DNA of 63,176 bases, counting the filler, from Nemertoderma westbladi (Eukaryota > Animalia > Xenacoelomorpha): assembly GCA_032718475.1 (NCBI GenBank). It is 3 parts of 3 records of this genome, joined end to end, with 100 filler letters (N's around TTAATTAATTAA, not from the genome) between each part and the next. Parts side by side here need not be neighbours in the genome. Positions count along the whole stretch, not along the records: positions 1 to 20,099 come from JAUCBJ010000585.1; 2 more parts are not named here. The stretch is one strand, 5' to 3'. This document shows, one piece after another, positions 244-33,953 of this stretch. The stretch's first letter is position 1; each line of letters starts with the position of its first letter. Under the pieces are notes generated by a model. It was not told the origin of the DNA and did not search any database. It saw only the letters and a program-made list of their open reading frames with translations. The translations under genes were made by a program, and so were the position numbers.

Positions 244-346
244 GTTATCTAAACCAGATTCCGATACAGATCCTCAGTTTCGGTTGTGGTTGAGTTCCAA
301 GCCGGATCCATCGTTCCCATTACCTGTACTACAAGCTGGACTGAAG
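244..346 (+). CDS. Axonemal dynein heavy chain, internal exon (AAA6 region)
   Basis: Acceptor ...tattcacag|G and donor AAG|gtaagt. Translates LSKPDSDTDPQFRLWLSSKPDPSFPLPVLQAGLK, matching the dynein HC FRLWL(T/S)S.P...FP..LQ.G.K motif. Not in the ORF track. Confidence 0.9.
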
Positions 347-1170: not shown

Positions 1171-1395
1171 GTTGTCATTGAAAACCCGAGAGGATTAAAG
1201 GCAAACTTAGTACTGAGTCTTACTGAAGGGGGTGTGGCCAATCAGAACATCTTTAACTCAGAAAATCACAATCCATCACCATGGAAACCATTGCTGTTCG
1301 GTTTGTGTTTGTTCAACGCGGTTGTTCTAGAACGCAAGAAGTACGGAGCTTTAGGGTGGAACGTTGCATACGAATTCAACCAATCAGATCTCCAG
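1171..1395 (+). CDS. Axonemal dynein heavy chain, next exon (AAA6/lid region); DNAH6/DNAH14-like by motif
   Basis: Acceptor ...gccatag|GTT and donor CAG|gtacgt; 225 bp, in phase with the previous exon. Translates VVIENPRGLKANL...WKPLLFGLCLFNAVVLERKKYGALGWNVAYEFNQSDLQ, the canonical ERKK(F/Y)G.LGWN..YEFN.SDL motif. Confidence 0.92.
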
Positions 1396-1400
1396 GTACG

Positions 1401-2670
1401 TCCACGAAGCTAAGGAAAATCAACTACTTTCGCTAAGAAAGATTTTCCTTAGCTGAGATGGTCTATTCATAGTGGGCTATTTTACTTGTGTGAGGCAGAT
1501 TTGGTTTTTTTTGATAGGTGAAAAAACTAGCCTTTAAAAGTACCCTGAAATTTTGCATGTATATACTACTCGACGAGGCGCATCTTTTGGGCCGGGTCTC
1601 ATATCCAGGAAAAATCTGGTTTCCATGGCAACGGACTTCAAAAAAAGTCTATGTATTTCAAGTCAATATTTATAACTCTATTTGTAGGAAAACTATAATA
1701 GATATAAACTTGGGGTTTCTCAACTCAACTATAAGGTCCATAGCAGAGCCGATTGAAGTTAAATAGAAAATCCAGTTACCTTGGCAACCAGGCTAAACAG
1801 ATGTTAAAATTTATAAAATGTTAATTTGAAGCCTAAGGTTAAGGTGTTATTACTTGGGACCAACCCCTACCCCCACTATATAAATTATTCTGCGTCCGAA
1901 TTTGATTGTTCTATTTTGCAGTTACCATGACAACCGCTGAAAACAGATGTTTTTATGCAAAAATTACTCATTTGGACATAGACTTCATGATAAAATTTTA
2001 TGAAACTGGGTATGTGTTATCTGGACCACTAGTTGGGACTTTTGGTGAAACTGAAAACATTCCAGAAATATCTAGTTACCATGGTGACTGGAGTTTATTA
2101 AAGTCTATATCATTCAAGTCTAAATTCAATACTCTATTTGTAGCAAAATAATGTAATATATATAAATTTGGGGTTTTGCAACACATCTATAAGGTCCATC
2201 CATATACAAGCCGTTCCACGTTAATTACACAATCCAGTTACCATAGTAACAAGACTAAACAGATGTTAAAATTTATAAAATTATAATTATTGAAGCACAA
2301 GTTAATAGTATTATGACTTGGGACCAAGACCTACCCCCATTATATGACTGCATCCGAATTACATTGTTCTATTTTTCAGTTTCCATGACAACCACTGCAA
2401 ACAGTTGCATTTTAATAGAAAATCGGTAATTTGGACATAAACTACAATATTTTCTGAAACTTGGTATGTGTTGTCTGAACCACAATCTTTACTGAATCTT
2501 TTTTCAAAGGTAAAACCAACAGTTCCAGAGAACTCTAGTTTCCATGGGAATATAAGTTAATTATTGGCAAATGCTACTAAACGAGGCTAAGCAACGAACC
2601 AAAGTGTGGCCGTTTGTTTAATTTTCCTTAGCTTCGTGGTTGCATTTCCTTTAGGAAATGCCTTTCTAGT
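1401..2670 (+). mobile_element. Non-autonomous Helentron-type element (HINE/DINE-1-like), copy 1
   Basis: 5' subterminal IR ccacgaagctaaggaaaat with an adjacent partial inverted copy (gattttccttagc), internal degenerate tandem subrepeats, 3' subTIR attttccttagcttcgtgg, then hairpin gcatttcct-tt-aggaaatgc. Confidence 0.75.
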
Positions 2671-2802
2671 TTAAGTAGCAGTGACGTAATCAAACCATTA
2701 CAATCAGGTGAATATTTGGGGTGGTTTAGCAGTTCGGCTAATAAACTGATTATTAGAGACCATTGTGGGGTCAGTGACCTCTAAGTCACCCATAAGGATT
2801 AT

Positions 2803-4068
2803 TCCACGAAGCTAAGGAAAATCAACTACTTTCGCTAAGAAAGATTTTCCTTAGCTGAGATGGTCTATTCATAGTGGGCTATTTTACTTGTATGGAGCAG
2901 ATTTGGGGTTTTTTGATAGGTGAAAAAACTAGCCTTTAAAAGTACCCTGAAATTTTGCATGTATATACTTCTCGATGAGGCGCATCTTTTGGGCCGGGTC
3001 TCATATCCAGGAAAAATCTGGTTTCCATGGCAACGGACTTCAAAAAAAGTCTGTGTATTTCAAGTCAATATTTATAACTCTATTTGTAGGAAAACTATAA
3101 TAGATATAAACTTGGGGTTTCGCAACTCAACTATAAGGTCCATAGCAGATCCGATTGAGGCTAAATAGAAAATCCAGTTACCTTAGCAACCGGGATAAAC
3201 AGATGTTAAAATTTATAAAATGTTAATTTGAGGCCTAAGGGCAAGGTGTTATGACTTGGGACCAATCCCTACCCCCACTATATAACTTATTCTGCATCCG
3301 AATTACATTGTTCTATTTTTCAGTTACCATGACAACCGCTGAAAACAGATGTTTTTATTCAAAACTTATTCATTTGGACATAGACTTCATGATAAAATTT
3401 TACAAAACTGTGTATGTGTTATCTGGACCACTAGTTGGAACTTTTAGTGAAACTTAAATTATTCCAGAAATTTAGTTACCATGGTAACTGTAGTTTATTA
3501 AACTCTATATCATTCAAATCTATATTGATAACTCTATTTGTAGCAAAACTGTAATATATATAAACTTGAGGTTTTGCAACTCATCTATAAGATCCATATC
3601 CAAGCCGTTTGAGGTTAATTAGAAAATACAGTTACCATAGCAACAAGTCTAAACAGATGTTAAAATTTATAACATGATAATTTGAAGCACAAGTTAATAG
3701 TATTATGACTTGGGACTAACCCCTACCCCCACTATATGACTTATTCTGCATCCGAATTACATTGTTCTATTTTTTAGTTTCCATGACAACCACTGCAAAC
3801 AGATGCATTTTGATAGAAAATCGGTAATTTGGACATAAACTACAATATTTTCTGGAACTCAGTATGTGTTATCTGAACCACAATCTGTACTGAATTTTTT
3901 TTCAAAGGTTAAAGCAACAGTTCCAGAGAACTCTAGTTTCCATGGGAATATAAGTTAATTATTGACAATTGCTACTAAACGAGGCTAAGCAACGAACCAA
4001 AGTGTGGCCGTTTGTTTAATTTTCCTTAGCTTCGTGGTTGCATTTCCTTTAGGAAATGCCTTTCTCGT
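2803..4068 (+). mobile_element. HINE/DINE-1-like element, copy 2
   Basis: Same termini, subTIRs and 3' hairpin as copy 1, with high sequence similarity. Confidence 0.75.
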
Positions 4069-4101
4069 AAGAAATTAATAAGTTGTTTTTTGGTCGTATA
4101 A

Positions 4102-5952
4102 TCCACGAAGCTAAGGAAAATCAACTACTTTCGCTAAGAAAGATTTTCCTTAGCTGAGATGGTCTATTCATAGTGGGCTATTTTACTTGTGTGGGGCAGA
4201 TTTGGGGTTTTTTGGTCGGGGAAAAAACTAGCCTTTAAAAGTACCCTGAAATTTTGCATGTATATACAACTCATCAAGGCGCGTCGTGTGGGATGGGTCT
4301 CATATTCAGGAAAAATCTGGTTTCCATGGCAACGGACTTAGAAAAAAGTCTATGTATTTCAAGTCAATATTTATAACTCTATTTGTAGGAAAACTATAAT
4401 ACATATAAACTTGGGATTTCTCAACTCAACTATAAGGTCCATAGCAGAGCCGATTGAGGTTAAATAGAAATTCCAGTTACCTTGGCAACCGGGCTAAACA
4501 GATGTTAAAATTTATAAAATGTTAATTTGAAGCCTAAGGTTTATGTGTTATGTCTTGGGACCAACCCCTACCCCCACTATATGACTTATTCTGCGTCCGA
4601 ATTTCATTGTTTAATTTTGCAGTTACCATGACAACCGCTGAAAACAGATGTTTTTATACGAAAATAACTCATTTGGACATAGACTTCACGATAAAATTTT
4701 ACGAAACTGGATATGTGTTATCTGGACCACTAGTTCGAACTTTTAGTGAAACTCAAAACATTCCAGAAATATCTAGTTACCGTGGTAACTGGAGTTTATT
4801 ACAGATTATATCATTCAGGTCTATATTCATAACTCTATTTGTAGAAAAACCGCAATAGATATAAACTTGGGGTTTCTCAACTCAACTACAAGGGCCATAG
4901 TCGAGCAGATTGAGGTAAATTAAAAAATCCTGTTACCATGACAACCAGGCTAAACAGACGTTAAAATTTATAAAATGATAATTTTAAGCAAAAGTTAAAG
5001 CTATTATGACATGGGACCAAGCCCTACCCCCTCTATATAACTTATTCTGCATCCGAATTACGTTGTTCTATTTCTCACTTTCCATGGCAACCGCTGAAAA
5101 CATGAAAATTTGAAGCCTAAGGTTAAGGTGTTATGTCTTGGGACCAACCCCTACCCCCACTATATGACTTATTCTGCGTCCGAATTTCATTGTTTAATTT
5201 TGCAGTTACCATGACAACCGCTGAAAACAGATGTTTTTATACTAAAATAATTCATTTGGACATAGACTTCGCGATAAAATTTTACGAAACTGGGAATGTG
5301 TTATCTGGACCATTAGTTGGAACTTTTAGTGAAACTGAAAACATTCCAGAAATATCTTGTTACCATGGTAACTGGAGTTTATTAAAGTCTATATCATTCA
5401 AGTCTAAATTCAATAAAAACTCTATTTGTAGCAAAATAATGTAATAAATATAAATTTGGGGTTTTGCAACTCATCTGTAAGGTCCATATACAATCCATTC
5501 GAGGTTAATTACACAATCCAATTACCATAGCAACAAGACTAAACAGATGTTAAAATTTCTAAAATGATAATTTGAAACACAAGTTAATAGTATTATGACT
5601 TGGGACCAAGACCTACCCCCACTATATGACTTATTCTGCATCCGAATTACATTGTTCTATTTTTCAGTTTCCATGACAACCACTGCAAACAGATGCATTT
5701 TGATAGAAAATCGGTAATTTGGACATAAACTCAATATTTTCAAAACTTGGTATGTGTTGAACCACAATCTGGACTGAATCTTTTTTCAAAGGTAAAACCA
5801 ACAGTTCCAGAGAATTCTAGTTTCCATGGGAATATAAGTTATTTATTGGCAAATGCTACTAAACTAGGCTAAGCAACAAACCAAATTGTGGCCCTTTGTT
5901 TAATTTTCCTTAGCTTCGTGGTTGCATTTCCTTTAGGAAATGCTTTTCTCGT
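4102..5952 (+). mobile_element. HINE/DINE-1-like element, copy 3, with extra internal repeat units
   Basis: Same termini; internal block duplicated (about 4530-4850 recurs at about 5110-5430). Confidence 0.75.
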
Positions 5953-7887
5953 AAATTGGATTATACAACAGACCCTGAGGGACACTAATTATTGCTGTAA
6001 CCGCACACAACATCAACATGTCATTACATATAATAAGACATTCCAAGTGATTTGTAACGGAAAATAAAATAATACACCAAAGAGTAGTACCGGTACACAT
6101 ATAGGCCTTCAACTGTATCATTGGAGAGATAATTGAAACGTTTTGCAGAGAAACAGCGCAGCAGAAAAATATTTGTGTATTTTCAATCAAAATATGTTTT
6201 GAAAAATGCAGACACGACATATACAACTAGTAAAATGTTGGTTAACAAACTGTTTTAATTAGATCATTAATTAACTTTATTTAGAATAATTAAATAATGA
6301 CATGAATTAATTATTGGGTGACTGCGTGGACCACTTTTTTAGTTGTTTTTTGCTTCTTTACACTCTGAAACTGTACACAATCATTGTTTAAAAGGGATCC
6401 CATCCCGATCCCGAAAAACCTGGATCGCTGCAAAAAAATATAACCGCGATCCCGTATTTTGCCCCGTACAGTGAAGTGATAGTGGCACCATAACATAAAT
6501 TAATTATATCGAATTATAATATGTTAGTAAACAATCCAATAATCAACTGTAAAATAAGTTTAATATTCCTTACTAATTAAATACATATGGGTCATATTAC
6601 GTTGAAACTGCAATATGTGGAAGTTAAGAAAGGTAGACGGAGCGCAAGGTGCAGAAACCATTGGATCTAATTGATTTTGTGAATAAATAAAGGCAACACG
6701 TGACTGTCAATCTATATAACTTAGTTTACAACTACAATGAAATATTTTAATTTCAATATCATTTAAAAGTACCATAATTATTATGTTCCACAATATCCGC
6801 CCTTTCAATGGAATTATGGCAAATATAACAAATTGAAGGATTTTTGACACGTGAATCACGTGATGTTGTAAGATTGGTATTACGGGCATTACCTTTTTGG
6901 AGACACCTGACAGTTTTTGTAGGATTTAAAAGAGTTTTGTTCGTATATGCATTGAAATTATGCATATTAGTAATTTATTTATTTTTTTTTTTTAGTAATT
7001 TTAAGTATTGATATTTCTCATGGCAAAAATTGAAATTTGAATTTCCCGCCAATTTTATTCAGATTTTTCTGAAAAAGTTGCCTTTTTTCGAAATATATCT
7101 ATCTACTCCGTTATTTTTTACATTTCATTCGTTTGAAATTTGCAGTGGATGGTCTTGGCATATTGACCAATAAAACTGAAAATTTCAAACGAATTGATTG
7201 AAAAATGACTGCCTAGATAGGCAATAAATTCAAATAGTCATTTATGAATGTTTTTAAGGAAGTAGACAGCTGGCATTCTCACTTACCGGGGTTTCGTAGT
7301 CGCTGATATCAATTCTGATGTCAGTTTTCAGGTTTGGCCAAATATAGCCTGTCTGTCGGAATGTCTGTCTGTCTGTTGGTTTGTCTGACTTTCAATACAT
7401 CACAAACAATACGCATTTTATGTGTAAGATAGGTTGGGTCTTAGCGCAGGTAAGCAAACATAGAAAAAAGGTAGGGGTGGTGGTCGAGGGGGTCTGCAGC
7501 AAAAGCAAAAAAAAAACATTAGCCGACATACAGACCGACCGACAGACAGGCAACGAATGAAATATAATATAGTGTATGTAATTATATATGCAAAGTTCGC
7601 TTACTTCGTCGCTCGCTCCACACAGGCGCAGCTACACTAATAGTCCAGGAGATGTTTAATAGGGTTGGTGCGCGCAAAGAATTCAGGTTCATTAGTTACT
7701 AATATCATCGCATATGAAAGCTTAGAATCATACACGTATCTTTTATTATACTGAATATTGCGTGATTAATGCTGCATTAGTTCTAATTGTTTCTGAACAT
7801 CAAACGCGCACCAAACTTACTACTCTTATAACGTGAATGTGCAGGGAATACCAGAGGATTACCTGCATTAGCGAAGCTTCATCTTAA

Positions 7888-8197
7888 GCCCCGTTCACAT
7901 CCAACGGTGCGTGAGCGGTAAAGTAGTCTGGCGGTATTGAAGCGGTAAGCCAGCGGTACACTACCCGGAGCCCGTTCACACCCAACGGTACCGTTGCGGT
8001 AACTGATTGTCTATTTGTCGACTGTGAATTCAACAGGAAATTACATTAATTGTTTTAACATTGTTTAAATGGGCTGCGGTAAACCGCGCGGTTTATCGCA
8101 CAACTACTGTACCTGTTGGGTCGTTCACAGTCAGCGGTTTACCGCTGGCCCTGTGGTACACCGCGTGGTGTACCGTTCCGTTGGATGTGAACGGGCC
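7888..8197. mobile_element. MITE with about 20-bp TIRs flanked by TTAA
   Basis: ttaa-gccccgttcacatccaacgg ... ccgttggatgtgaacgggcc-ttaa. Superfamily (Harbinger or Kolobok) not resolvable. Confidence 0.8.
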
Positions 8198-8449
8198 TTA
8201 ATGACACCAATTAATACTGGGGGATTAATTAGTAGAGTTTAACAATGTTATAAACAACGTCAATGTGATTAATAACAGAGATGTTAAAGATAAAGAAATG
8301 TTAACGTTAAAACCTCATCTATACAACTAGAGATATTTATCTCCAAAAACATAGACATTGCACTAAATATACATAGACCCGCGACCCAAACCTACACTGA
8401 GAGTACAATATCATACATATACATAGATATAGTATATAGATACAATAGA

Positions 8450-8552: not shown

Positions 8553-9706
8553 TATATCGCAGGTCACTGACTACTAACTGATATACATACCATACACCGA
8601 TCGGGTATCTAAGCGATGTTATTAATGTAATACTAATTAATTAATTAATTACTCGAGACATTGTGAGATGAAACGGTGGGCAACTTAACTGTAATATAAC
8701 TAAGATGGGGAGCAACTTACTAAATCGTTATAATACATTTATAATAAGTTGAAAGAAAACTCAACCTAACTAAATCGTGTAACAAATATACCATGCAAGT
8801 AAAGTAATATAGTAAGATGCAAACTAAGTAGTGTTACAGATTAACTAAATCATTGCTAAAATTACGCAAAAGTTAAAGAAATGTATTGAAATACCATAAC
8901 TATACACCAGTTACCATTCATTGAGATTAAGGTTTATAAAGCTAAACTAAGATATACGCTTTAATGCCTTGAGGCAGGTTACTATCAAAGATACTCAAAA
9001 TTAAAAAGTAACGTAGGACATATTATAAATGTTTACTGAACAAACAATTAACAACCCTCAGTGTATTATAGACAGCGTACTATATTTACATAATCGACAC
9101 AAAACTTTATGCTTTAATATAAGCGACCTATTAATTACAATAATACTCAACTGTGGAATTAGGGAAGCCCTTTATAGTGTTGAACCCCCAGGGTTCGGGA
9201 ATCGGAGTCCTTAAAAAATATATGTGCAGATCTCGACTCAAAGTTCGGCAATATTTCAACCAAAATGGTGGTTTCTTCATTAGAAAATGAACGTATTTGC
9301 TTCAATGATTGTTTAAATAAAGCCCACGTCATTACAGGAGTCTATTTTTATTAAATTTTTAAAAATATGTTTGGTTTGGGAAAAAATGTTGGTCTGATTC
9401 TGAGTCACCAGCCGTGGTTCGGCCCGGCCGGTTGTCCCGTGCCGTGGTACGACTGTCACGCGAATTTAGGCTTGCATATAGGTTGCTTATAAAAAGGCGT
9501 TTATACTAAAATCGAAGCAAAAGGCCTCAACAATTCCCCTAAGTTTAGTATATAGATTTGAGGTGCCGTTTCGAAATAAAAAAATATAGAGCTTTGAGTT
9601 TCTTGCACTTAAAATGATTCTCTATAATATAAATCACTGTCTCTCTTCTCTATATATCGATATGATTTCAATCAATCGAAGATTCCAATAAAAGAACCGG
9701 CAGTAT

Positions 9707-12538
9707 CTACAAGTAGAACAATCGGTGCGCCAACTCCAGTTTGGGTTCTTTGTTGTGGAGATGCATGCCGACCATCTGGCACAACTTGTGGGCGTATTGG
9801 CACGGGGCAGGGACCCTGACAGTGCCGGGCCAGTTGTAGTACATGTGGGTGAGCTTGTAGGCGAGTCGTTGCATGTGGTCCGGCTTCATACTGCCGGAGT
9901 CGTAGACGACGATGTAGTGGGTCGGCGAGACGGTGCCTTGACGCACGTGCTGCGAGATCAGGTAGAAGTCGTAGAGATCGACGCGCGTGATGCACTGATC
10001 GACGACGGTCCCGCTCCCGGGGTTGTCCACCGCGTCGGGGCCGCGACGCGCATATACCCGCTGGTTGATCCGCTTACCGACGACAACCACGGCGAACTTG
10101 GGGTCGTAGTCCTTCCCGAAACTCGCGAAGGTACCCCGGATCTGGACCACCTCGCTGTCCCGGACCACGCCCAGCTGCCCGTTACCCACTCCGTCTCGGA
10201 ACACGATGATCCTCTCCGGTAACGCGTGATTCTCGTCGTGCCACGCCTTGATCCCACACGCGATGTACATGGTGAGCCCGTCAATGATCTCCTGGTTCTT
10301 CCCCTGGATGAGAACTCGCGAGAACCACCTAGTGAAGTTCTTATTAAGGGAACTAACAACACCCGCGACCGATTTCCCTCCCGCTTTATCGTGGTACACA
10401 TCTATCCCGATCACCATGGTCGAGCGCAACGGATTATCCACGGCCCACAACTCCCCGCCTAACTTGGCGTTCATCTGTAGCGCGATCTTTTGCGAAATAC
10501 TCCGGAGTTTGTTGGGCTGACCGGAGATCGTCTTGGAGTTGATGCACTGACACGCGACCGGAAGGTCCGCGTAACACAACTTCTTCACGGCGGAGTAGCG
10601 ATCGTCCCTGGGCGTCGGGAATATCGTCACGACCATCTGGGTATCGGGGGTCAACGACGACTTTATATTGTTAACGTAGGTCTCCGTGCGATCGTCGCGT
10701 AGGGCCACGTACTGGGGCGCGTTCACGTTCATGCCGATCTGCTGGGCGACCTTCTGTAGAGTCAACACGAACTCGCGAGCGGCGCTCTCATTTCGGTTCA
10801 CGAAGAACAGAGACCAGACGCGGAGGTCCACCGCCGTGATCATCGGCTCCCGCACCACGTCCCGCGTCCAATCCGCCTCGGGGCCGCTCATTACCGTCTT
10901 CCGAGCCAACAGGATCTTCTCCTGCGGCAACAAGCGCGCCTCCGTGCCCAGCACGTCCTCGTCCAACTCCACCTTCCACTTCTCCATCTCGGCGCGCGCC
11001 TCGTTGCTCGCGTACAGCCGCTCCTTGAACTGCCGCATCACGGCCAACCGCTGGTTCGGCGTGACCCGCGTGTGCACCGCCACGTCCTTCATGACCCGGA
11101 AGTCGGCCCGTTGGGCGTCCGTCAACCCCGTCATGAAACACAACTCCGGGACCAGACAGACCATCTGGGTCTCCTCCTTCCCGTCCTGGGTACGCCGCTT
11201 CGGGTTGCTAACCAACAGCGGCTGCTCCAAGTCCGAGATGTTCACGTTGTAGTGGTCATTGTAGTAGTCCATATAGGCCTTCTCCCCTCCCTGGCGCGTT
11301 GGGAACGTACATGTTGGGTTCTTGTCCCAGAAGATGTCGTCAATCTTGTAGGTTCTGTTGTTGTACCGGGTCAACACGATCTGGCCTACCAGTTGCCTGT
11401 AGATGGTCTCCTTGAAGTTGTCCCGCGCTGTCCGGTATAACCCCTTCATGTACTGCAGCACGGTCTCAGTGCGCAGCAGCTTGTGTGACACATCGAGCAG
11501 CAACATGATCCCCCCGTCGTACTCCTCTATGGAGGTTATGTAGCCCGGCCACAACTCGATTTTGTGCTGCGGCACCTGCATCGGCGTCTTAGGGTCGTAG
11601 TAGTTCCGCCCGACCTGCGTCATCTTGAGGATGCGGAGAAGTTTCCGGAACAATATGTTGTACTGCTGGAGGCAGCGGCCCGGTCGCACCGACTTGACGA
11701 AGACGACTTCGATGGTGATGACCTCGTTGTCGGTGATCCGGGTTGACTGGAAGACAGTCCTCTGCTCCGGTAGCTCAATGGGGAGCCAGAGTTGGCTGCC
11801 GTCGAAGGTCTTGGTGTTCCCGAGGGCTTCACGATGCATGTCGAGGAGAGAAAAGCGCATGTCGCGACTGTCGATGTCTGGCGAGTAGTGCACGGCGTAC
11901 TGGTACAAACCGTAGTCGCGGGTTTTCAGTTTGATGTAGTTGACGAGCACATCCACCTTCTCGCCCGTCACCCCGATGTACTTCTTTACCTCCATATCGG
12001 CCTCCACAGCCCGTCCCATGACGGGCTGTGACGGCACCCGCTCCCCATGGCTGGGGCTGACGCCCATCGGCGGGGTGCGAACCGGGGCCCCCGGTACTCG
12101 CTCGGGGCTGGTACCCACGCGCGTCGAGCCCGTTACTGTCGCCTGCGCGGCGAACTGGGACGCCAGAGTCGTGTCCCCGGGCGGTTGGTGCTGCCGCATC
12201 TGTTGTAGCATCATCTGGGCGCGGCCCATCCCCGGTCGGGGCACCGCAGCCTCGGGTGGTCGCACAAGAGCGACTGCGGTTGCGTCACCACCCCCGCTGT
12301 GGTAGACGCCACCAGCGGTAGGCTCAGCCGGCGCTCCCGGGACGGGGTAGACACTCTGCTGAGCGGCGGCCAACAGAGCCCGGGCTCTCCCACCTGCTCG
12401 TCCGACTGGGGGCACCGCGGCGCCCACTGTAGGCATCGCACCCGGTTGCTGGACCCCTCTCCCCTCTTCGCTATCTCCTGCTTGCTTCTGAAGAGCCGCC
12501 AATAACGCGGCCCCTCTACCCCCTCTTCCCATAGCCAT
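9707..12538 (-). CDS. piwi: Piwi-clade Argonaute, PIWIL2/Ago3-like, intronless coding sequence, 943 aa
   Basis: Uninterrupted ORF. N-terminal GRG/GRA repeats; PAZ (VLTRYNNRTYKIDDI, LVPELCFMTGL); MID (RDDRYSAVKK, QMNAKLGGELW); PIWI with catalytic D (VIGIDVYHD), E (NQEIID), D (IVFRDGVG), H (YAHKL); C-terminal LFYL. GRGAALLAALQK and KLRSISQKIALQ resemble the Ago3/PIWIL2 clade. Confidence 0.97.
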   Translation of the reverse strand: MAMGRGGRGAALLAALQKQAGDSEEGRGVQQPGAMPTVGAAVPPVGRAGGRARALLAAAQQSVYPVPGAPAEPTAGGVYHSGGGDATAVALVRPPEAAVPRPGMGRAQMMLQQMRQHQPPGDTTLASQFAAQATVTGSTRVGTSPERVPGAPVRTPPMGVSPSHGERVPSQPVMGRAVEADMEVKKYIGVTGEKVDVLVNYIKLKTRDYGLYQYAVHYSPDIDSRDMRFSLLDMHREALGNTKTFDGSQLWLPIELPEQRTVFQSTRITDNEVITIEVVFVKSVRPGRCLQQYNILFRKLLRILKMTQVGRNYYDPKTPMQVPQHKIELWPGYITSIEEYDGGIMLLLDVSHKLLRTETVLQYMKGLYRTARDNFKETIYRQLVGQIVLTRYNNRTYKIDDIFWDKNPTCTFPTRQGGEKAYMDYYNDHYNVNISDLEQPLLVSNPKRRTQDGKEETQMVCLVPELCFMTGLTDAQRADFRVMKDVAVHTRVTPNQRLAVMRQFKERLYASNEARAEMEKWKVELDEDVLGTEARLLPQEKILLARKTVMSGPEADWTRDVVREPMITAVDLRVWSLFFVNRNESAAREFVLTLQKVAQQIGMNVNAPQYVALRDDRTETYVNNIKSSLTPDTQMVVTIFPTPRDDRYSAVKKLCYADLPVACQCINSKTISGQPNKLRSISQKIALQMNAKLGGELWAVDNPLRSTMVIGIDVYHDKAGGKSVAGVVSSLNKNFTRWFSRVLIQGKNQEIIDGLTMYIACGIKAWHDENHALPERIIVFRDGVGNGQLGVVRDSEVVQIRGTFASFGKDYDPKFAVVVVGKRINQRVYARRGPDAVDNPGSGTVVDQCITRVDLYDFYLISQHVRQGTVSPTHYIVVYDSGSMKPDHMQRLAYKLTHMYYNWPGTVRVPAPCQYAHKLCQMVGMHLHNKEPKLELAHRLFYL

Positions 12539-12895
12539 AGTTCGAGTTTGTTATGATTCGTCTGCTTGGCCAAATTCTGTATTATATTACCGGTACTGGT
12601 ATAATTATAATGCAATAGAATATAAACAAGCAATCATTAATCAGTGAGGTAACGCCAAGCCTATAGTCTGGGCGAATTACTGAATTAGCTATTCATTCGG
12701 AAAGTAAATACAATATATGACTGAATTTGGTATTATTCAACGCAAAATTGACTATTGCTGCTGTATTTGAATACTACTGACTGACTGATGTACGGTAGGC
12801 CTACCGTACACTATGACCCGTAACATACGGTATACCGGTATAGTCTCATTTTCTGATGACGCAATTTTTTCTACAAACCTACAAATCTTGAAATT

Positions 12896-13433
12896 TAAAA
12901 AAGTTTCTTTTTCGAAATCGCACCATCCGTATCATTGCCATTCAGTCGTAATTATTTTCATACCGGTATCAATACAGCAATAGAAAGAGAAAGCTTGTGT
13001 TGCAAGGATTCCAAATACAGAAATAGGTATCTGAATTTCGTTGAGAAACAGCTGAAAAATAGGCGTTCAAATATTGCAAGAATTATTGTTCGCTGCAGGC
13101 CATTTAGGCCTACCGGTACCCGTATTCTATTTCATATGAACGTCAGAACGTGAACGTTTATTTTATGAGTTGGTAGGCAACTGCGGTATGCTATATTGCG
13201 TAGCTAATCATACCGGTACATAAACAAATTGTTCCAGAACATGGTGTATTTATTACAGTATTAAATAGCTGAATAGAATAAATGGCCTTCAGCGAACAAT
13301 AATTCTTGCAATATTTGGCAGTTTCTCAACGAAATTCAGATATTTTTTGTTACATATTTGGAATCACCGGTAATGTGAAGAATGGCCACGATACGCAGAT
13401 ACGGCGGGTGTGATTTCGCAAAAGACACTTTTT
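12896..13433. mobile_element. Old foldback element/MITE with long imperfect TIRs upstream of piwi
   Basis: About 12896-13110 (aaaaagtttcttttcgaaatcgcac...tctgaatttcgttgagaaac...aaatattgcaagaattattgttcgctgcaggccattta) is the imperfect reverse complement of about 13279-13433. Confidence 0.75.
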
Positions 13434-13435
13434 AA

Positions 13436-15645
13436 CCCTTGTGCTCTCTTTGGGGTCATTTTTGACCCATCGGAGATTTAAACTTACATAATTTTATCAC
13501 ACATTGATATTTTATCTCAAAATTTTGTGACTTTTATTATTTTATAGTGTACCGGTATCTTAATTAGAAAAACAAAATTTGCAATTGGTCTATTCAATTT
13601 TACAATTTATACACATATTGCAGTATTGTCTTTGAGGTCAAATTTGACCTCATCAAATACCATTCAATATCAACGAAAGATTTACTTATCTTAGCCTTCT
13701 CTGTACTGATGACTGAATGTATGGTACTGGTCTAGCAGAAGCCTATATAGAATTCTCAGATTGTAAATTAGATAAGTACCAGTACCGGTCACGGTCACAG
13801 CTACTCAAAACCACGCTATGGTCTGCAAATCTAAACTCAGTAGGTCCCTTTCTTCTGTGCTTGAATTCCAGTCAGCAGGTACTGTACTGTGTATTTTGAT
13901 ACGGATATCAATATCTCAAAACTCAATATACATTATATTTGACTGTTTGGGTGAAATGTCTACGGAATCGAGTGGGGATGATGATGAATGGGATACTGTT
14001 TCTTGTAGCTCTTTGGAATCCGATTCAGACTTTGTTGTAGAGAATAATGCTGATGAATATTGGCTATCATCTGATGACACTGATGCTGCTATAGATTCGG
14101 ACACTAGTTTTGGAACAGTAGCGGCTGTAGATGATACGGATACAGTTACTTCTAGTCCAATTGAGTCCAGAAATGGTGAAGTCATATGGAATACTATTCC
14201 TCCTACACAATTAGGTCATCGCGCATCGGCAAATATAATAAGTGAAACCCCAGGAGTAACAAGGTATGCAGTTGCTAGAATTCAAAACATTCTGACGTCA
14301 TTTCAATTGTTCATTACAAGTGAGATAATATCAACTATCGTGCAAATGACGAATATAGAGTCTAATAAAGTATGTGGCAATAATGTAGTTGATGAGGAGT
14401 CAATTAGAGCATTCTTAGGGCTAAAATTATTAGCTGGTTTATACCGTTCCAGAAACGAGTCATTGAAAACATTGTGGGATGATACATATGGAAGGCCTAT
14501 ATTCCGGAGTACAATGTCATTGAAGAAGTTTTTGATATATCAAGATATTTACACTTTGATGACAAGGACACCCGTTCAGTGCGACGGCAAACTGACAAAC
14601 TGGCGCCAATTAGAGCAGTAGAGATGTATGGGACATATGGACTAGCAAATTACCAATGATGTATAACGTTGGAGAATGTGTAACAATCGATGAACAGCTA
14701 GTCCCATCCCGTGGGCGATGCCCCTTCCGTCAGTATATCCCCAGTAAGCCAGATAAGTATGGGATAAAGATCTGGTTTCTGTGTGATGCGAAATCAAGCT
14801 ATGGTTGGAAAGCAGATGTGTATCTTGGGAAGCCTGAAGGTGGTCCTAGGCAGACAGATTTCGGAAAGCAAGTTGTGTTGAATCTTTCGGAGGGACTAAA
14901 GGGCCGTAATATAACATGTGACAACTTTTTTACATCTTTGGCCCTTTCAAACGAACTGACAAAGCGCCTCCAGACTATGGTTGGAACTATTAGGAAGAAT
15001 AGAAAGGAGCTGCCAAAGAGCTTTTGTGAATCGAAGAGACGGGAACAGTATTCGACCTTGGAGGGGTATTCCACAGGAAATACATTAGTATCATACTGTC
15101 CAACGAGAGGAAAAGTGGTTGTCCTTATGAGTTCAATGTACTCAAAGGTGACATACAGTACTGCAGTTGAGAAGAAGCCAGACATTATACTATATTATAA
15201 TCAAACCAAGGGAGGGGTAGACAACCTTGATAAGTGTATATCCACTTATAGGAGCAAGCGGCAAACGAAGAGATGGCCTGTAGCTCTCTTTGACAACATG
15301 GTTGATGTGTCGGCTTATAATGGGAACAAGGGTAAGAAATACAAACGGCGCTTGTTTATTGAGGAGCTTGGGCTGGAACTTATTAGCCCAACCATAGCGA
15401 CACGAAAACGGCTACCGTATAGTTCAAATGCTCAGAGGTTGGTGAAGCGTTTATGTCAGGACATACCATCGGATGCTCCATCAACATCGATATCATAACC
15501 TACTCCGCATTCAAGAGGATATTGCCATCTCTGTACAGGTGCAAAGCGGAGAAACAAGGTATCAAAGGTGTGTGCAAAGTGTGATAGACACACTTGTAAT
15601 GCACATGGCGAAGCCACATTTATGTGTCAGGAATGTGACGAATAG
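13436..15645 (+). mobile_element. piggyBac transposon, degenerate, right end not found
   Basis: TTAA followed by CCCTT... left terminus with ggtca/tgacc repeats. Transposase split over ORFs 13818-14621 and 14656-15498 (TIDEQL, YIPSKPDKYGIK, TCDNFFTS, YNQTKGGVDNLD). A Cys-rich tail (CHLC...CAKC...C..H...CQEC) follows the in-frame stop and ends at 15645. Confidence 0.92.
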
Positions 15646-16175
15646 GCCTAGTTTATTTTTTATTTATTTATTTATTTATTCCAGACAATATATATATATA
15701 TCAATATAATTATTAATTACATATACGTCATCCATATTCTACACTAGGGCCTAAAATATTAATTACTAAAAGGAATGCACGAAAATGGTATTATTAACAA
15801 ATTATCAGTATAACATTGAGGAATCTAACATCGATCTCATTCTTGAACAGTGCTGTGTTCCCACGGCAAATGTTGATACTAGATTATTAGTGGTAGCATC
15901 AATCCTATTAAATAAATTGACTATGGATTTATGACGCACATGGATGAAACACGATCCATAGTCAGATACGAGTAAAACTGTAGTAAACTAATTATACAGT
16001 AGAATATTCAAACTGTCAAATGAAATAGGGACGATGGTTTAATTTACTAGTTATCACATCACACCTTACAAAGTTGAAATTGAATTTGAATTATATTACT
16101 AGTATATGGTCTACTTAGTAGTACCCCATTTTGAAACACACTTTTAAAAAAACGGGCACTCCACCGGCCACCCCC

Positions 16176-17093
16176 CAGGTTGGAATTCATGCATGAGCGC
16201 GCAGGTACGCTTTGTTGTTTTGAAATCACCGTGCACCTGAAATTGGCTCGTCGCGCACCTCATCATATGTCATAATCCAAACAAAATCGCGCAGCTCATG
16301 TCATGCATATCTCAAAAAATCGCACAGTTCATATTTTCATAAGAACAATTTTACATTCCTATTTTACAAGTTTGAGCGTTTTAAGCTTATCTTTACGTCT
16401 GTCTGTCTGTACGTTGAATCTAGGCTTACATAATAAATGTAATTTTTGCAACATCAAAATTGTTAATATTAAAAAATATTTTTTTAATCCACTACTATGG
16501 TGGCCCATCGGGCTCACTGCTTTTATAACAGAAAATATTATTTTAGATTACAAACAAAACATGTACCGGTATAATTTCAAAAAAACGAATATTGAAATAG
16601 GTACCAGTCTGCCAATAATACTTTGTCAGTTTGTATAGGCCTACCTAACAATTAGGCTTAAACATACAGTTGGCTTATAATTAAGTCATACTTATAATAC
16701 ATTGTTACTTTCTGACTTTACCTGTTTACTAACGTAACATCGGCATAGCATAGACCTAATAACAATACAACAATAGAGTACTGTAGTTAAAATAAATAGA
16801 CAAATTCAGCTCCGGTTGCCGGCATTACAGTATTATGGTGAAGTGATTTGACTGTTTGAAGAATTGTAAATGAGAAACAAATGCGAGCGTAGCGAGCGAA
16901 ATTTTTTTGTGTATTTTCGTGATTTCAATTAATTTGTGGTGCGCATCAGAGGCAGAGCTGCGCGCTGAGGCGCAACGCGCACCTGTCTCACACCCGAACG
17001 CGCACCTGTCTCACCCAAACGCGCAACGCGCATCTGGTTTGCGGTCATTCGCGCAGGTACGCGTCCGAGTTTTGCAGCATGAATTCCAACCTG
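16176..17093. mobile_element. MITE with 17-bp TIRs and 10-bp target duplication
   Basis: caggttggaattcatgc ... gcatgaattccaacctg, flanked on both sides by ggccaccccc (16166-16175, 17094-17103). Confidence 0.8.
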
Positions 17094-18881
17094 GGCCACC
17101 CCCAATTCATATGACAATTTGTAAATTTTTTTTAGTATCATAATATTCAAACGCATCTATTAGCATCTGTAAAAATAATTTTTAAACAACATTAACCCAA
17201 CAGCCCAAAGTGTCAAAAATTCGACCTATATTTTGACATTGAAAAAAAGTGAATTTTTGAAAAATGCATTTTTGGCCTCCTAGTGTTCACAAATGCGAAG
17301 CAATGACAAAATTTATTTTACTATTTGATAGACAATTTATTCGGACATCTTCTAATATTTCAATTTTTATCATAACATCACGCAATCACCCACAATCCGT
17401 TAGGCCTAAAGAAAAAAGTACAACTTGCTGTATCAGTGTATCAAGTCACCTCAATGTATCAAGTCACCCCGAATTACGGTAGGCCTACTCAAAGCAGAAG
17501 CTGGACAAACATTTTTATTTTTAATATTACAGTATTATGATAATTAGGCCTATCTGCCTATCCCATCGATGAGATTCTAATTCTCAAATTAATTTATACA
17601 GACTTTTATGGCGATTCTAATGGCATAATTTTTAGAATGCCAATGTTCAAATTTCACTGCCGGTTTTCAAATTAAATTTAGCATTGTTTTCTAAGGAGAA
17701 ATTTCACTCTGAGAGCGTTTTCTATTCTGGCTGTAAATTGGACATATTGCTGTATTGTGACCAGTGTTCCTGACTGTATTGTTAATGTTACCATGGAAAC
17801 CTATTTCATTAGTCTGTTAGTTGTACCGGACCAGTAGCAGAAGGACAACTGTTGTTTTAAATACTTATCAGCTTATTACAGTATTACAACATTTGTAAAT
17901 AGCTTAACAATATTTTTATTTTAGAGTACCGGTACGGTAATCTGGTAAATACAGTAGGCCCCTACTGCCCTGGCCCTAGGCTAATAATATTTTAATTTTA
18001 ATAGTAATTTTAATACTTCAGTACTTGAGCTATGAAAACTTTGAATTTGTAAATAGCTTAACAATATTTTTATTTTAGACTGTCAGACTGTTAGAGTAGG
18101 CTGGTTGGCCTAATAGCCTACTGCAGTACTGTAATACCGGTAGCGGGTAGGCAGGCCCTAAATACAGTAATATTATACAGTTATATTAGGCTGTCAGGCC
18201 TATAACTGTATAATAGCCTAGCCTAGTAATTTTAATACTTGAGCTATGAATACCGGTATGTAAATAGATAGCCTAACTGCCTAATAGGCCTACTGTAATA
18301 TGATAGCCAGATAGCCTACTGTGATAACAGATAACAACTAAGACTGTAAGACAGTGGACGGTAGGCTAGGCTGGTAGGAGTAGGTATTTCTGTATTTTAG
18401 ATAGGACCTACCTCTGTAGGCCTACCTATTTTATTGGTCATCATCTTGTAAATTGCCAGGGACTAACAAACGGTGCTGTCTGTGACTTTGTGACTTAGGC
18501 CTGTAGCCTACTCATTCTGTCATTGCCTTAAATCAGTAAATTTACTTTCAGATTTCACTATCCAGCTATCAGACTATACCAGTCTGCCAGTATACTGGCT
18601 GGGGCTGACCGGTACCGGTACCCTACTGCCCAATAATATCTTTGTATTGTACAATCATGTAAATTTAATTTATGTTGAGTAGTTGAGTTGACTTCCTGAC
18701 TTGGAAAAGAAAATCAATCAAACAATCAATCAATAGGCCTAGCTCTACCAACCTGCCAATGCAGTGCCAACCAGTGTTTTAGTGTCTGGGTAATATAAAT
18801 TTTTTAAACTGTTTTAAACAATTCTTACTGCTATTGTACTAACAATACTCACTCCTATTGGCTCCAGAAGTCGAGAAAATA

Positions 18882-20099: not shown

Positions 20100-20199
20100 N
20101 NNNNNNNNNNNNNNNNNNNNNNNNNNNNNNNNNNNNNNNNNNNTTAATTAATTAANNNNNNNNNNNNNNNNNNNNNNNNNNNNNNNNNNNNNNNNNNNN
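20100..20199. other. Assembly gap with artificial linker
   Basis: 44 N + TTAATTAATTAA (stops in all six frames) + 44 N. Confidence 0.97.
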
Positions 20200-23100
20200 C
20201 TTTATTAGATCTAGGTCTTTTGCTCCTCGATCTTCTACCGGGATCGCCTCCAGGAACTCACGGGAGTTGCTGGTGAATGTAGTTAATCGAAATCCACCTT
20301 TCTTTAAGCATTCTACCATTCCTTTAGCGACCTCAATGGCTTCTTCGACTGATGGAAGGGACTTTAGATTATCGTCCATGTAGATGTCTCGTTTGATGTT
20401 GTCGATCACCTCTTTAGAGAAGGCGTCTCGGTTGTCATTCGCAGTGGTACACACCACGGAACAGGCGTTTGAAGGGTTCGAGATTATCCCAAAGGCTTGG
20501 ATGGTCATCCAGTACTCCACCGGTTTCTTGTTGAGGTCTCCTTCAGGCCACCACAGAAATCGTAGGCTATCTCGATCCCTATCCAGCGCTTTGACTTGTA
20601 AGAACATGCCTTCTATATCTGAGGCGAAAGCAATGGAATATTGTCTTAATCTTAATAGTATTCCCAACAAGGATTGGAGTAAGTTGGGTCCGGGTAACAA
20701 TTCAGAATTAAGAGATTGGCCCATATAAAGGGCGGAACCGTCAAACACCACTCGTACTTCATGGGGTTTACCGGGTTTGGGAACGTAATGGTGAGTTAAA
20801 TAATACGTTCTCTCAGTTATAGGTGTTTCTTCCGGTACTAGCTCCGCATATCCCTTGCTAATAAACTTCTTAAACTGCGTTTGATACATTTCTTTAGCTG
20901 AAGAATTTGCCGTAAGGCGTCAATGTAGTTGAGCAATTCTTTTCTCCGCCAAAGGTCTGTTGTTAATGAACTTTGGTTCTCGCTTTCGGAAAGGAAGTCC
21001 AATCTCATACCTACCTTGATCTTTAAGAAAACGAGTAGTTGTCGCTTGGATCTGCTTGGCTCTTTCTTCCTCCACCGATAGGGCCTTATCGTAGGAGTTG
21101 GGCTCTACAGCCTCTTGAGTAAAGAATCTTACGGCGTGTTCATCCCGAGTCTTGGCATTATAACGTTCAATGACGTCATTAAGCTCGTCGTTATAGTCGT
21201 CTCGCTCTGATGGGAGAAGGAGTTGACATAAGTTCACTTGATTTTGCCAAGTCTCGCTTTCCTTAAGGAGATCGATGGCATTCTCCTCATCGAAGAGTTG
21301 ATGTATATCGTCGTTGTCTGAGGAGTATGGAGTTCCCTCAGTTGGATCGTCTAACTCACTGTTCTCAACTTCCCATTCTCGCACTTGATATACCTGATCT
21401 TTCGGTAATCTTTCCATGAGAGTTCTACGGGAAGGGCCAGTAGAGTACCAACCCACTCTAGTTCTTACCGCATAAGGTTGTAATGGTTGCGGTTGAGCGG
21501 GCCGTTTCTCCAATGTCTCGAGCGCTTCATGCGCGTTTTGACCGATGAGTATTTGCACTCCAGGGTAATCGGTGTCGAATCTAGGTATTTCCATCTGCTG
21601 GGTGAAATCGTCCTCGTCCCAGTTATAAGGTTCCACTTGTGTGGTAGCGAAGTTCTTTATTGCCACCTTTTTCACTTACCTTATGCTATGTTCTCCTAGT
21701 TCGTCCTGGGGGGTGGACAACGCACCTACATAATAATCCGCTGTTACTGTAGATTTCCAAACCTGCATAATTCCTGACATGTTTAGCTTAGTTCGGAACT
21801 TGGGTTGTCCAGCAAATATGTCTTCGGCTAGCTCTTTGTCGATGAATGTTCCTGTACTACCGGAGTCAAGGAGGGCGTTCACTACATAACTCCTTTTTGG
21901 TCCGTGGACCCTTACCTGTACCACAGGAAATTCTCTAATCCCTACATTGGAAGTTGGCGCTTTCCAAAATGGTTGTCGATCAGAAGTAGTTAGAGTGAGG
22001 TCACTTTCTGTATCTTTTTCATAAGTGAGTGCTCGATACACTGCGGTATTTATCATGTAACAGGATTCGTTTTCGTCGGAGAACTCGTCCGTATAGAATC
22101 CTTCCATCTCAGATTGATCAGTGTCGTTCACATCACTGAATTGGACATGTAGTTCGGAATCACTTACCTGACTCGGACTATTTCGCTCGAATTCAGTGTG
22201 CAACAAGATATGATGTTTCGCACCGCACTTGGCACACCTTGTGTCAGAGTAACAGGTTCGACGTTGGTGTCCTTGTCTGAGGCAATTATAACACAACCGC
22301 TTATCCCACATGACTTCCCGTCTCTCAGTTAATGATTTCTTTAGGAATTCATCATACATATTCAAGCGATGGGTCCCATCACATAGCGCACATTTCGGTT
22401 TGATGTTACTTACCTTATTTTGAGTAACATTGTGCACACTTGTTTTTTCTTCGGGCTTTCTCACCTGAATTCTCTTGGGAGACGTAGGAGGAGTTTTTCT
22501 TACCTGTTCTCTCCTGTCATTGGTTCGAGACTTGAATTTACTTACCTGATCTTTAGGCATTTTATTGACATAATAAGATCTGTCAGTGTCTTTCCCGCTA
22601 TCCTCTCCTTGAGAAGTCTGGCTTTCGCCGTCGTCTGTATAACACACTGGTGTTACCTTTCTCCTAGAGACGGGTTTTTCACTTACCTTGTTTTCCGGTG
22701 TCTTCTCTCTGGACAGTTTTAGGAGCTGTAATTTCACTTCTCCATCTAGGAATGACATGAGATCAGCCATGGTAGGGTCTCGTCGTTGTTGTTCCATCAT
22801 ATATAACACTTTCTTATCCCAGCATGTACCTACTCCACCCTTCGGTAAAGTAGAAGCCACGGCTCCAATAACCATAGAACTCTGATATTCATGAGACTTA
22901 CCTAACTAATCTAATTGTCTACAGATCTCTTGAATCTCATCGGAAAACTCTATTATCCCGCTGCTAATGAACTTTCGGGGCGCTACTAATTTTGCATACA
23001 AATATTTAGCTATGTTATTCCTATTACCATACCTGATGTTTAGTGTATCCCAAACTTGTCTTAATCCATCTGGATGTCCAATAAACTTTAACGCCATTAA

Positions 23101-25123
23101 CTTGGGAGATCCTTCCAAGCACTCGATGAGGAATCTAAGTTTCTCTCCATTAGATAGTACAGAGTTCTGTATGTTATCTTTATAATATTCATTAAAAGGT
23201 AACCATTTCATCTCATCTCCATTGAACTTGACTATCTCTCCCACCTTTACCGCTTGCCGGGCTTCGGTTCTAGCCATTTGACGCGTAAAACTTTCTTGGG
23301 CCATCGTGTTATTTAATATCGAGTTATCGGTATATAAATTTCTCGGATTATGATCAGGTCTATAGGGAATGTCATTATCAACAGGTCTATAATTACCCTT
23401 AATAGGGTTCACTATAGGAGTTTCTACTTCGCTAGCAGTATAGATGCGTGTAGGCTCCACACCTTGCGCATGAGATACTTCAGACCTAACAGGTTGACAC
23501 ATTGTTACAGGGGGTGGTGGTATACCCCTTTGTGTATTTACTAATTTATCGCGTTCTAGCGCGATACTTTGCTGCACTTCTTGCAACTCTAACCTACTTT
23601 CCCTTACTGTGCCCTTGAATTGCTGAACGGTCTCCTGCATCTGCCCGAGCAGGAGATCCATCCCCCGTCGTCTCTCATCCACCCATTCGACCGCCGAAGC
23701 GGGATTCGCCAACGTTGTAGCGGGCGGACGAGGGACAACGGGCGACAAATCATGAATATTTCGCTCGGAGTCCAGGACCTGAACTGTCTCATGGGCTGTT
23801 CTACTGGGCACAGGTAGCTTAGTGCTGTGCAGAGGGAATTTAGAGGTAGGTTCAGGGAGCACAGGTGTCTCTATCACCGAAGGGGTGATTTCAAGAACAG
23901 GCCTAATTATTACAAACTCATCTACTATAGTAGGGAGTCTTTCTATTTTAATTATTTGGTCTGTGGGTTCTGTACTACCTAAGTTGGTGTTATTTAGTTG
24001 CCTTCTAACAGCTGGAGGCAAATCAGGCAATTTCTGACGGTGTGATTTTCTTTTACGTCTGCTTATACGAGATCTATTTCCTTTGCCTTCAGTATCGGTG
24101 GTATCGCCTTCCTCAGATGATGTATATCCCTGTCTTTTGGGAGTAGATCGACCCATCATCTGCATTTGACTAGCTGTTAACTGTTTATTTATGCAGTCTT
24201 GATTCTCCTGAATGTTTTCCAATTCTAGTTGGATGGTTTCTTCAGCCGCTCTCCGTTCTGCTTCTGCCACTGCCTCTGCAGCCTTTCTTTCCGCTTCGGC
24301 CTCTGCCGCTGCCGCCTTTCTTTCCGCTTCGGCCTCTGCCGCTGCCGCCTTTCTTTCCACTTCGGCCGCTTTTCTTTCAGCTTCTGCCGCTGCCACGGCT
24401 GCTGCTACTGCCGCTGCCTTTCTGTCTTCTATACGTTTTTTCTTTACTTGTTCTTCTTGGACTCTAGTGATGCGGAGGCGTTCATCAAATTTAGCCTGGT
24501 TCGCAGCCCTCATTTCTACATCGATGGCATCCAACACACGCTGAGTTCCTTCGCTATTAGGGCTAAGTCCATCTAACCTTCTCCTCAACTCTTCATCTCC
24601 TAAAAAACGCTGATAGTCTGACAGATAGATGTCAATGGCATCCCTCTTATGTGGTTTCTCTGCCGTCGCTTCACTTTCCACTTGGGAAAAAGTAGCGTCT
24701 GTTGATTCTCCATGGGTTGAGCGCTCCTCCAGCTGAGCTTTCCACTGAGCCGTTCCTTGAACCTGGAGACTCACCCGTTGAAACCAAGTCTTTACGGCAA
24801 CTTGCAACGACGTGTCTTGTCTTCTTTTAGAAGCCTCCTCAAAGGCCGATAAGATTAGCCTGATTCGCAGAATTCTTTCTCTAACTTGATAAAGCAGTTG
24901 TCCCTGCTCTTGAGGTCCTTGGGGTTGTTGAAACAGTTGTTCTTTTAATCTCTCCATAGAGCTGAAGAATCCCTGTGCGTATCCGGCTGCGGACCTCTTC
25001 CACACAGCTGGATCGATGGTTTCCTTGGCTACTCCCATCCGGTGTATGTCTTCCCAGGCAGCTTCTGATAAATCAAACGGGAGTCCGGGTCTGGGGAAGT
25101 TCCATTGCGACTCGACAATAGAC
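20200..25123 (-). mobile_element. BEL/Pao LTR retrotransposon gag-pol, copy A (pseudogenised, cut by the gap)
   Basis: Gag (KFNGDEMKWLPF), BEL triple zinc knuckle (CALC..., CYNCLRQGHQRRTC, CAKCGAKHHILLH), protease ALLDSGS, RT (VRVVFDGS, SDIEGMFLQ, IYMDD). In-frame stops at 22906, 21676 and 20920. Confidence 0.93.
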
Positions 25124-25140
25124 TTTGACTTTGTAAGAAC

Positions 25141-33952: not shown

Positions 33953-33953
33953 T

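What the first reader, a model, noticed from the sequence alone, without database searches (positions are those of the whole stretch)
9707..12538. Intronless, GC/CpG-rich, slicer-competent PIWIL2/Ago3-like gene in AT-rich DNA
Seen: an uninterrupted 943-aa ORF with all four catalytic residues and N-terminal RG motifs. GC is roughly 60% on lines I sampled, drops abruptly at both ends, and contrasts with the AT-richer, intron-split dynein exons next door. Known: metazoan piwi genes usually have many coding introns. Inference: a retroposed, or element/virus-delivered or horizontally acquired, Piwi under purifying selection while nearly every TE around it has decayed. Its CpGs are retained whereas local TEs show CGA>TGA stops.
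Basis: partly seen in the sequence, partly recalled or inferred. Interest (0 to 1): 0.8.

Follow-up and report, generated by a model that had tools for sequence, protein, structure and literature searches.

The report
Intron-free, GC-rich PIWIL2/Ago3 gene
This animal carries an intact gene for the transposon-silencing enzyme PIWIL2/Ago3 whose coding part has no introns and is GC-rich exactly from start to stop codon; it likely lost its introns long ago through an mRNA copy, which is unusual for this gene but a known kind of event.

Summary
Window 12538..9707 (minus strand) is one 943-codon ORF with Piwi_N, ArgoL1, PAZ and Piwi domains and an intact D713-E750-D782-H917 tetrad. It falls in the PIWIL2/Ago3 clade as an isolated branch (best identity 56%). 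GC is 60.6% and GC3 0.81, against 0.44 in the two dynein exons; GC change-points lie within 15 nt of the stop and start codons. Single contigs span the ORF and both edges in 4 of 4 runs laid (3 samples), so it is no chimera. All 3 coding differences in one other sample are synonymous.

Old RNA-mediated intron loss in the host's own gene is likeliest. A parent copy could not be sought (no genome held), and no poly(A) or target-site duplication survives. Virus, element or horizontal delivery has no support. CpG retention is not specific: the flanks keep CpG too. Intron-free Piwi genes have precedent here: two genomic loci from intron-poor animals, and probably a tunicate-clade PIWIL2. The scan had not noted this on other DNA. 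Verdict: new member of a known family with uncommon architecture.

The parts
9707..12538 (-). PIWIL2/Ago3-clade coding sequence, 943 aa, no coding intron; GC 60.6%, GC3 0.81
11999..12538 (-). Low-complexity N-terminal arm (residues 1-180) with GR/RG motifs, predicted Tudor-binding methylarginine sites
   Evidence: role from established knowledge of PIWI proteins
9758..10633 (-). Piwi domain (residues 636-927) with D713, E750, D782, H917
8557..9706 (-). AT-rich 3' flank (33% GC), likely 3' UTR; polyadenylation-type hexamers at 9352, 9118, 8965; no A-run of 7 or more
   Evidence: UTR status inferred
12539..12703 (-). 5' flank continuous with the ORF in the X4 contig; the contig leaves the window at 12703
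18562..18617 (.). Place where the 56 extra letters of the X4 contig begin (first 21 matched exactly; end inferred from length); a 5858-nt skip 12704-18561, orientation unresolved
245..346 (+). Dynein heavy chain exon (D6 P-loop region), control for host codon composition
1171..1395 (+). Dynein heavy chain exon (AAA lid 11), last dynein exon found; the Piwi gene may lie in the intron that follows
13776..15498 (+). piggyBac-type transposase (DDE_Tnp_1_7) in two frames, upstream of the Piwi gene

Best explanation
This is an intact PIWIL2/Ago3-clade gene without coding introns, likely the host's own working piRNA slicer, whose introns were likely erased long ago when a spliced mRNA was reverse-transcribed and inserted here, possibly inside a dynein intron on the opposite strand. 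Shown: ORF, domains, tetrad, clade, single-copy contiguity, GC confined to the codons. Inferred from family knowledge: it binds piRNAs through PAZ and MID, is recruited to Tudor scaffolds through methylated RG motifs, and slices transposon RNA in ping-pong with a PIWIL1-type partner. Inferred: the high GC3 is maintained, not inherited from a donor, because the protein lies 0.6-1.0 substitutions per site from any sampled relative and the flanks have host composition. The likely cause is selection for GC-rich codons that let an unspliced mRNA be exported and expressed, as reported for human retrogenes; GC-biased gene conversion or translational selection are alternatives. Whether a parent copy survives is unknown.
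For: Clade: groups with named PIWIL2 and Ago3, apart from PIWIL1/4 (FastTree 0.997, with names; SH-aLRT 100 and 97). Tetrad intact. One contig with 0 differences spans the ORF and both edges in X1, X2, X3, at depth 27.8/22.5/41.2 against 32.5/29.4/43.4 for the neighbouring unique contig; X4 spans 8557-12703 with 5 differences. 3 of 3 coding differences in X4 are synonymous, p about 0.013 if neutral. GC change-points match start and stop. The host has ordinary spliced genes (dynein exons with GT/AG ends), while vertebrate piwil2 has 23 exons (PMC7765534, passages). Functional human retrogenes gain GC4 over their parents (median +11.5%, n=49; PMC7181179, passages). Retrocopies that replaced parents are known (PMC3548309, abstract). 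No further dynein exon was detected downstream, which fits a long intron; most fly nested genes are on opposite strands (PMC5174743, passages).
Against: No parent found, and none could be sought. No poly(A) tract and no direct repeat of 10 nt or more around the gene. Nesting is unproven: the dynein 3' exons are not in the window, so the dynein may be truncated or continue beyond the gap. The GC3 control is only 109 codons from a single gene. In-place intron loss predicts the same ORF. The GC-selection mechanism is from human data and untested in this lineage. Expression rests on reading X4 as RNA; the tool lists it as 'DNA?'. Slicing was not assayed.
Confidence: 0.55

Rival explanations
1. Same protein and function, but the gene never moved: its introns were lost in place by recombination with cDNA, so it is the ordinary orthologue at its ancestral locus.
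For: No poly(A), TSD or parent seen. If the X4 skip 12704-18561 is a sense 5' UTR intron, retention of only a 5' intron fits 3'-biased cDNA-mediated loss (PMC7738191, passages).
Against: All coding introns are gone while the neighbour keeps short exons. The skip reads AT..AC on the sense strand without a U12 donor consensus, and has a good GT donor on the antisense strand.
Confidence: 0.24
2. Nothing special: in this lineage long or single exons are generally GC3-rich and PIWIL2 has been intron-free for a long time, so the contrast only reflects short dynein exons and AT-rich spacers.
For: 8 of 80 other Piwi loci have GC3 of 0.8 or more. Intron-free Piwi ORFs occur in L063 and L074. An unchecked note reports another long intron-free gene in this genome (e1-10585705).
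Against: A GC3-minus-flank gap of 0.50 or more occurs in only 1 of 59 scorable loci; it is 0.51 here. In L063 and L074 the neighbours are intron-free too, unlike here. Dynein GC3 is 0.44 and most TE frames are 0.27-0.44.
Confidence: 0.14
3. The gene was delivered by a virus or mobile element, or came horizontally from another animal, and its GC is the donor's signature.
For: Isolated long branch with best identity 56%. A piggyBac lies 1.2 kb upstream, and piggyBac-linked piwil1 duplication is reported in cichlids (PMC11753138, passages).
Against: No relative in viral contigs in two scans. GC ends at the start and stop codons, and the flanks are host-like. No GGGTTAA end in 1-20100, and both TTAACCC sites lie upstream of the gene. 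The dynein exon is equally distant from its database hits (55-60%; proteins up to 2000 aa only), which fits an unsampled host lineage.
Confidence: 0.05
4. Assembly chimera or contaminant contig.
For: The window has N gaps; X1 could be the source sample, and X2 and X3 are one sample.
Against: Contigs from 3 samples in 3 studies cross both GC edges by more than 150 nt, at single-copy depth in X1-X3.
Confidence: 0.02

Closest known systems
PIWIL2/MILI/HILI, insect Ago3, sponge Piwi (PDB 9IIY, 7YFQ, 7KX7)
   Same: Domain order, DEDH tetrad, RG-rich arm; 56% identity to Glandiceps piwi-like 2, 54% to Porites, 52% to Lingula Ago3
   Different: No coding introns (sturgeon piwil2 has 23 exons); isolated long branch; GC3 0.81 in 33-36% GC flanks
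Functional and 'orphan' retrogenes (PMC3548309 abstract; PMC7181179 passages)
   Same: Intron-free ORF of a multi-exon family, signs of purifying selection, raised GC at synonymous sites
   Different: No parent, poly(A) or TSD shown; those studies concern humans, and the GC rise reported there (about 11 points) is smaller than the contrast here
Intron-free Piwi genes in other animals (L063, L074; probably P0126, tunicate clade; possibly the glass-sponge clusters of P0081 and P0083)
   Same: Full-length Piwi in one open frame on genomic-length contigs
   Different: L063 and L074 have intron-free neighbours and GC3 0.48 and 0.60; DNA of P0126, P0081 and P0083 was not seen
piggyBac-associated piwil1 paralogues of Lake Malawi cichlids (PMC11753138, passages)
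   Same: Piwi gene in TE-rich DNA next to a broken piggyBac
   Different: Those are recent PIWIL1 DNA duplicates with a 3' piggyBac and TIR traces; here PIWIL2, single copy, piggyBac upstream, no enclosing TIR pair

Membership tests
PIWIL2/Ago3 clade | N, L1, PAZ, MID-PIWI architecture | tested here: met
PIWIL2/Ago3 clade | Groups with PIWIL2/Ago3, apart from PIWIL1/PIWIL4 | tested here: met
PIWIL2/Ago3 clade | Catalytic DEDH tetrad | tested here: met
   D713, E750, D782, H917
PIWIL2/Ago3 clade | N-terminal RG/RA motifs | tested here: met
PIWIL2/Ago3 clade | piRNA binding, slicing, ping-pong signature | not testable with these tools
   needs small-RNA sequencing or an assay
Retrogene | No coding introns while orthologues have many | tested here: met
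   23 exons in sturgeon piwil2; close relatives not available
Retrogene | Intron-containing parent elsewhere, or loss of ancestral synteny | not testable with these tools
   no genome held; no second contig at 85% or more over the CDS excludes only a recent parent
Retrogene | Poly(A) remnant and target-site duplication | tested here: not met
   expected to decay in old copies, so the gene is not filed as a proven retrogene
Nested gene | Lies between two exons of a host gene | tested here: inconclusive
   upstream dynein exons found, downstream ones not in the window
Virus- or element-borne gene | Relatives in viral contigs, or enclosing element ends | tested here: not met

The most novel reading that the evidence does not exclude
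The core transposon-silencing slicer PIWIL2/Ago3 of this animal is itself a product of retrotransposon activity: an orphan retrogene that replaced its multi-exon parent, sits antisense in a giant dynein intron, and had its codons driven to GC3 0.81 to be expressed without splicing. The same intron erasure struck PIWIL2 independently in tunicates and glass sponges, making it a recurrent fate of this gene.
Probability: 0.2. Interest if true: 0.55.

Novelty: new member of a known kind. Interest (0 to 1): 0.3.

Why it matters
The protein is a standard PIWIL2/Ago3, so the biochemistry holds no surprise. The architecture offers a clean invertebrate test of the link between intron loss and GC-rich codons, described mainly in mammals. 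If the parent is gone, it adds a case in which the machinery that represses retroelements was relocated by one. The lead that PIWIL2 is intron-free in several unrelated animal groups is cheap to check on annotated genomes. I found no paper stating it in the searches (open-access library only; supplements not searched).

Tried and rejected
No whole genome is held, so the parent search and genome-wide GC3 were not possible. Sequencing-run search: no RNA holder listed; this is no evidence on expression. In X4 no contig was laid on 150-1003 or on the piggyBac bins; lack of cover is not used as evidence. No spliced dynein joint appeared in X4. Viral contigs: no relative with the single protein or the alignment. 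Host placement: the query moved between trees (beside tunicate-clade rows at 0.575; with cnidarians at 97 under LG+G4; unplaced under the mixture model, where the careful search did not finish), so no host lineage is claimed. Further host exons: none among 117 other ORFs scanned against Pfam, whose few hits were TE-type, DUF or below cut-off (11 of the 128 listed were left out, 6 of them already scanned). Dynein motifs and tblastn found nothing after 1395. No GTRAGT donor lies in the sense CDS, but about one is expected by composition, so this says nothing. The CpG-decay argument was rejected. The bacterial promoter scan is irrelevant to an animal gene. Scan notes: no look-alike by sequence or by words. 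The exact protein is not in the 15-billion collection.

Full report
Observation. The minus strand of 9707-12538 is one 943-codon ORF. Pfam finds Piwi_N 211-282, ArgoL1 309-354, PAZ 362-492 and Piwi 636-927. The best solved relatives are sponge Piwi chains (E 1e-265). D713, E750, D782 and H917 align with the catalytic columns of 16 homologues. GC is 60.6%, GC3 0.81 (0.84 in the core) and the 1-kb flanks are 33% and 36%. Change-point fits put the edges at 9722 and 12536, within 15 and 2 bases of the stop and start. The only host control in the window, two dynein exons, has GC3 48 of 109.

The CpG claim is not specific. CpG o/e is 1.09 in the CDS, 1.12 and 1.32 in the adjoining flanks, 0.97 in the dynein intron and 0.45-0.83 in TEs. 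Two BEL copies show no excess of transitions at CpG, and 1 of 6 stops lies opposite an Arg (the CpG classes in that count are crude). Several TEs keep long frames, and most lie past an N gap near 20.1 kb.

Is it real? Five listed runs hold the stretch or part of it, all organism A; I laid four. In X1, X2 and X3 one contig runs from 8525 to about 12930 with no difference, at the depth of nearby unique DNA, and summed depth over the CDS equals that one contig. There is thus no chimera and no second copy at 85% identity or more. X1 may be the source sample and X2/X3 are one sample. X4, a third sample, has one contig over 8557-12703 with five differences; the three in the CDS are all synonymous third-position changes (p about 0.013 if neutral, n = 3).

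Expression. X4 is listed as 'DNA?', a guess. In X1-X3 the repeat at 1.3-6 kb has summed depth in the tens of thousands or more against 22-41 for the Piwi contig; in X4 it has 25-189 against 164. That pattern is not whole-genome DNA and suggests RNA, so the gene is likely transcribed as a continuous 4.1-kb piece. This is inference from contig depth, which the tool calls a poor measure. The X4 contig carries 56 more letters beyond 12703, whose start matches 18562 exactly. The 5858-nt skip reads GT..AT on the plus strand (good donor; a polypyrimidine AG lies 10 nt short of the joint; GT follows the inferred end at 18617) or AT..AC on the Piwi strand without a U12 consensus. It may be a spliced divergent or antisense transcript merged in an unstranded contig, a 5' UTR intron, or a deletion allele. 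I could not decide.

What it is. The top 120 database hits reach at most 56% identity and come from hemichordates, cnidarians, lancelets, molluscs, sponges and others; the exhaustive search found nothing closer. With named anchors three trees place it in the PIWIL2/Ago3 clade, apart from PIWIL1/PIWIL4. Its place inside the clade is unstable, so the host is an animal lineage without a close sampled relative. The dynein exon is as distant from its hits (55-60%).

Surroundings. The last dynein exon found ends at 1395 with a GT donor. The expected downstream exons were not detected anywhere in the window, and 18.7 kb without them precede the gap. Unchecked notes report introns of 30-50 kb in this genome. 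The Piwi gene may therefore be nested antisense in a dynein intron, but truncation of the dynein is not excluded. A broken piggyBac lies upstream with no element end on the far side of the gene, unlike the cichlid piwil1 case (PMC11753138, passages). No poly(A) or TSD remains. Viral contigs hold no relative.

Precedent. Of 80 Piwi loci from metagenomes (the best matches were kept, which favours uninterrupted genes and transcripts), four lie on contigs over 10 kb. L063 and L074 hold a whole Piwi in one frame beside other long uninterrupted ORFs, as in intron-poor genomes; L067 and L068 have one break. P0126, 69% identical to the Styela protein over 793 aa without gaps, is a 1134-aa call on a 33-kb Logan contig. 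Logan genes are called by Prodigal (10.1101/2024.07.30.605881, passages), which does not model introns (my knowledge), so a tunicate-clade PIWIL2 is probably intron-free too; I did not see that DNA. Glass-sponge-clade proteins of 857-996 aa on ENA contigs up to 2 Mb hint at the same (gene caller unknown). GC3 of 0.8 or more occurs in 8 of 80 loci. A GC3-minus-3'-flank gap of 0.50 or more occurs in 1 of 59 (21 dropped for a short flank or stops); here it is 0.51.

Mechanism. Shown: an intact, single-copy, slicer-type PIWIL2/Ago3 sequence with GC confined to codons. From family knowledge: piRNA-guided slicing of transposon RNA in ping-pong, with Tudor recruitment through the RG arm. Inferred: loss of all coding introns through an mRNA intermediate, by insertion at a new site (0.55) or by recombination in place (0.24). 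The GC is likely maintained, not a donor relic, since the branch is long and the flanks are host-like. Human functional retrogenes gain GC4 over their parents while pseudogenes do not (PMC7181179, passages), which gives a candidate cause; GC-biased conversion and translational selection remain open. Orphan retrogenes are a known class (PMC3548309, abstract).

Verdict. A real gene, correctly described, a new member of a well-known family. Its architecture is uncommon but has precedent. The exotic origins are unsupported. I found no paper on intron-free PIWIL2 (search listings only; supplements, where gene structures are often given, were not searched). Interest 0.3.

Noticed in passing
window 1398-5950: Three or more tandem copies of a 1.2-1.8 kb element with terminal inverted repeats (starts 1402, 2804, 4103; ends 2622, 4020, 5904), beginning right after the dynein donor. 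It has internal sub-repeats of about 450 nt, 16 X-box-like palindromes (label recalled) and very high summed depth in X1-X3.
   Followed up: partly
window 12703-18562: X4 contig joins 12703 to 18562; possibly a spliced transcript divergent from or antisense to the Piwi gene. A 10-nt inverted repeat lies at 12700-12709 and 18540-18549.
   Followed up: partly
window 20200-29700: BEL/Pao element present twice in tandem at a 4552-nt offset with near-identical stretches, next to an N gap; recent duplication or assembly artefact. A related, more decayed copy (76-80% identical) lies inverted at 33900-40300.
   Followed up: partly
window 20100-20199 and 50805-50904: Both gaps are 44 N, 12 bases, 44 N, which looks like an artificial spacer; the three segments may not be contiguous in the genome.
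   Followed up: no
window 59800-62500: A second GC-rich stretch (56% GC, GC3 0.64-0.71) with plus-strand ORFs of 132-309 aa, one Cys/His-rich, and no Pfam hit; probably an element. Preceded by 43- and 52-nt tandem arrays at 58089-58542.
   Followed up: no
window 56693-57738: Two minus-strand ORFs (216 and 162 aa) without Pfam hits, AT-rich and CpG-depleted; possibly a decayed DNA transposon.
   Followed up: no
window 50218-50775 and 58935-59447: Two near-identical LINE 3' fragments 8717 nt apart, on either side of the second gap.
   Followed up: no
window 7872-8217: Palindromic high-copy insert skipped by an X4 contig; likely a polymorphic small element.
   Followed up: no
L063, L074: Animal contigs with runs of long uninterrupted genes (PI3K-like 1234 aa; 1711-aa ORF) beside an intron-free Piwi.
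   Followed up: partly
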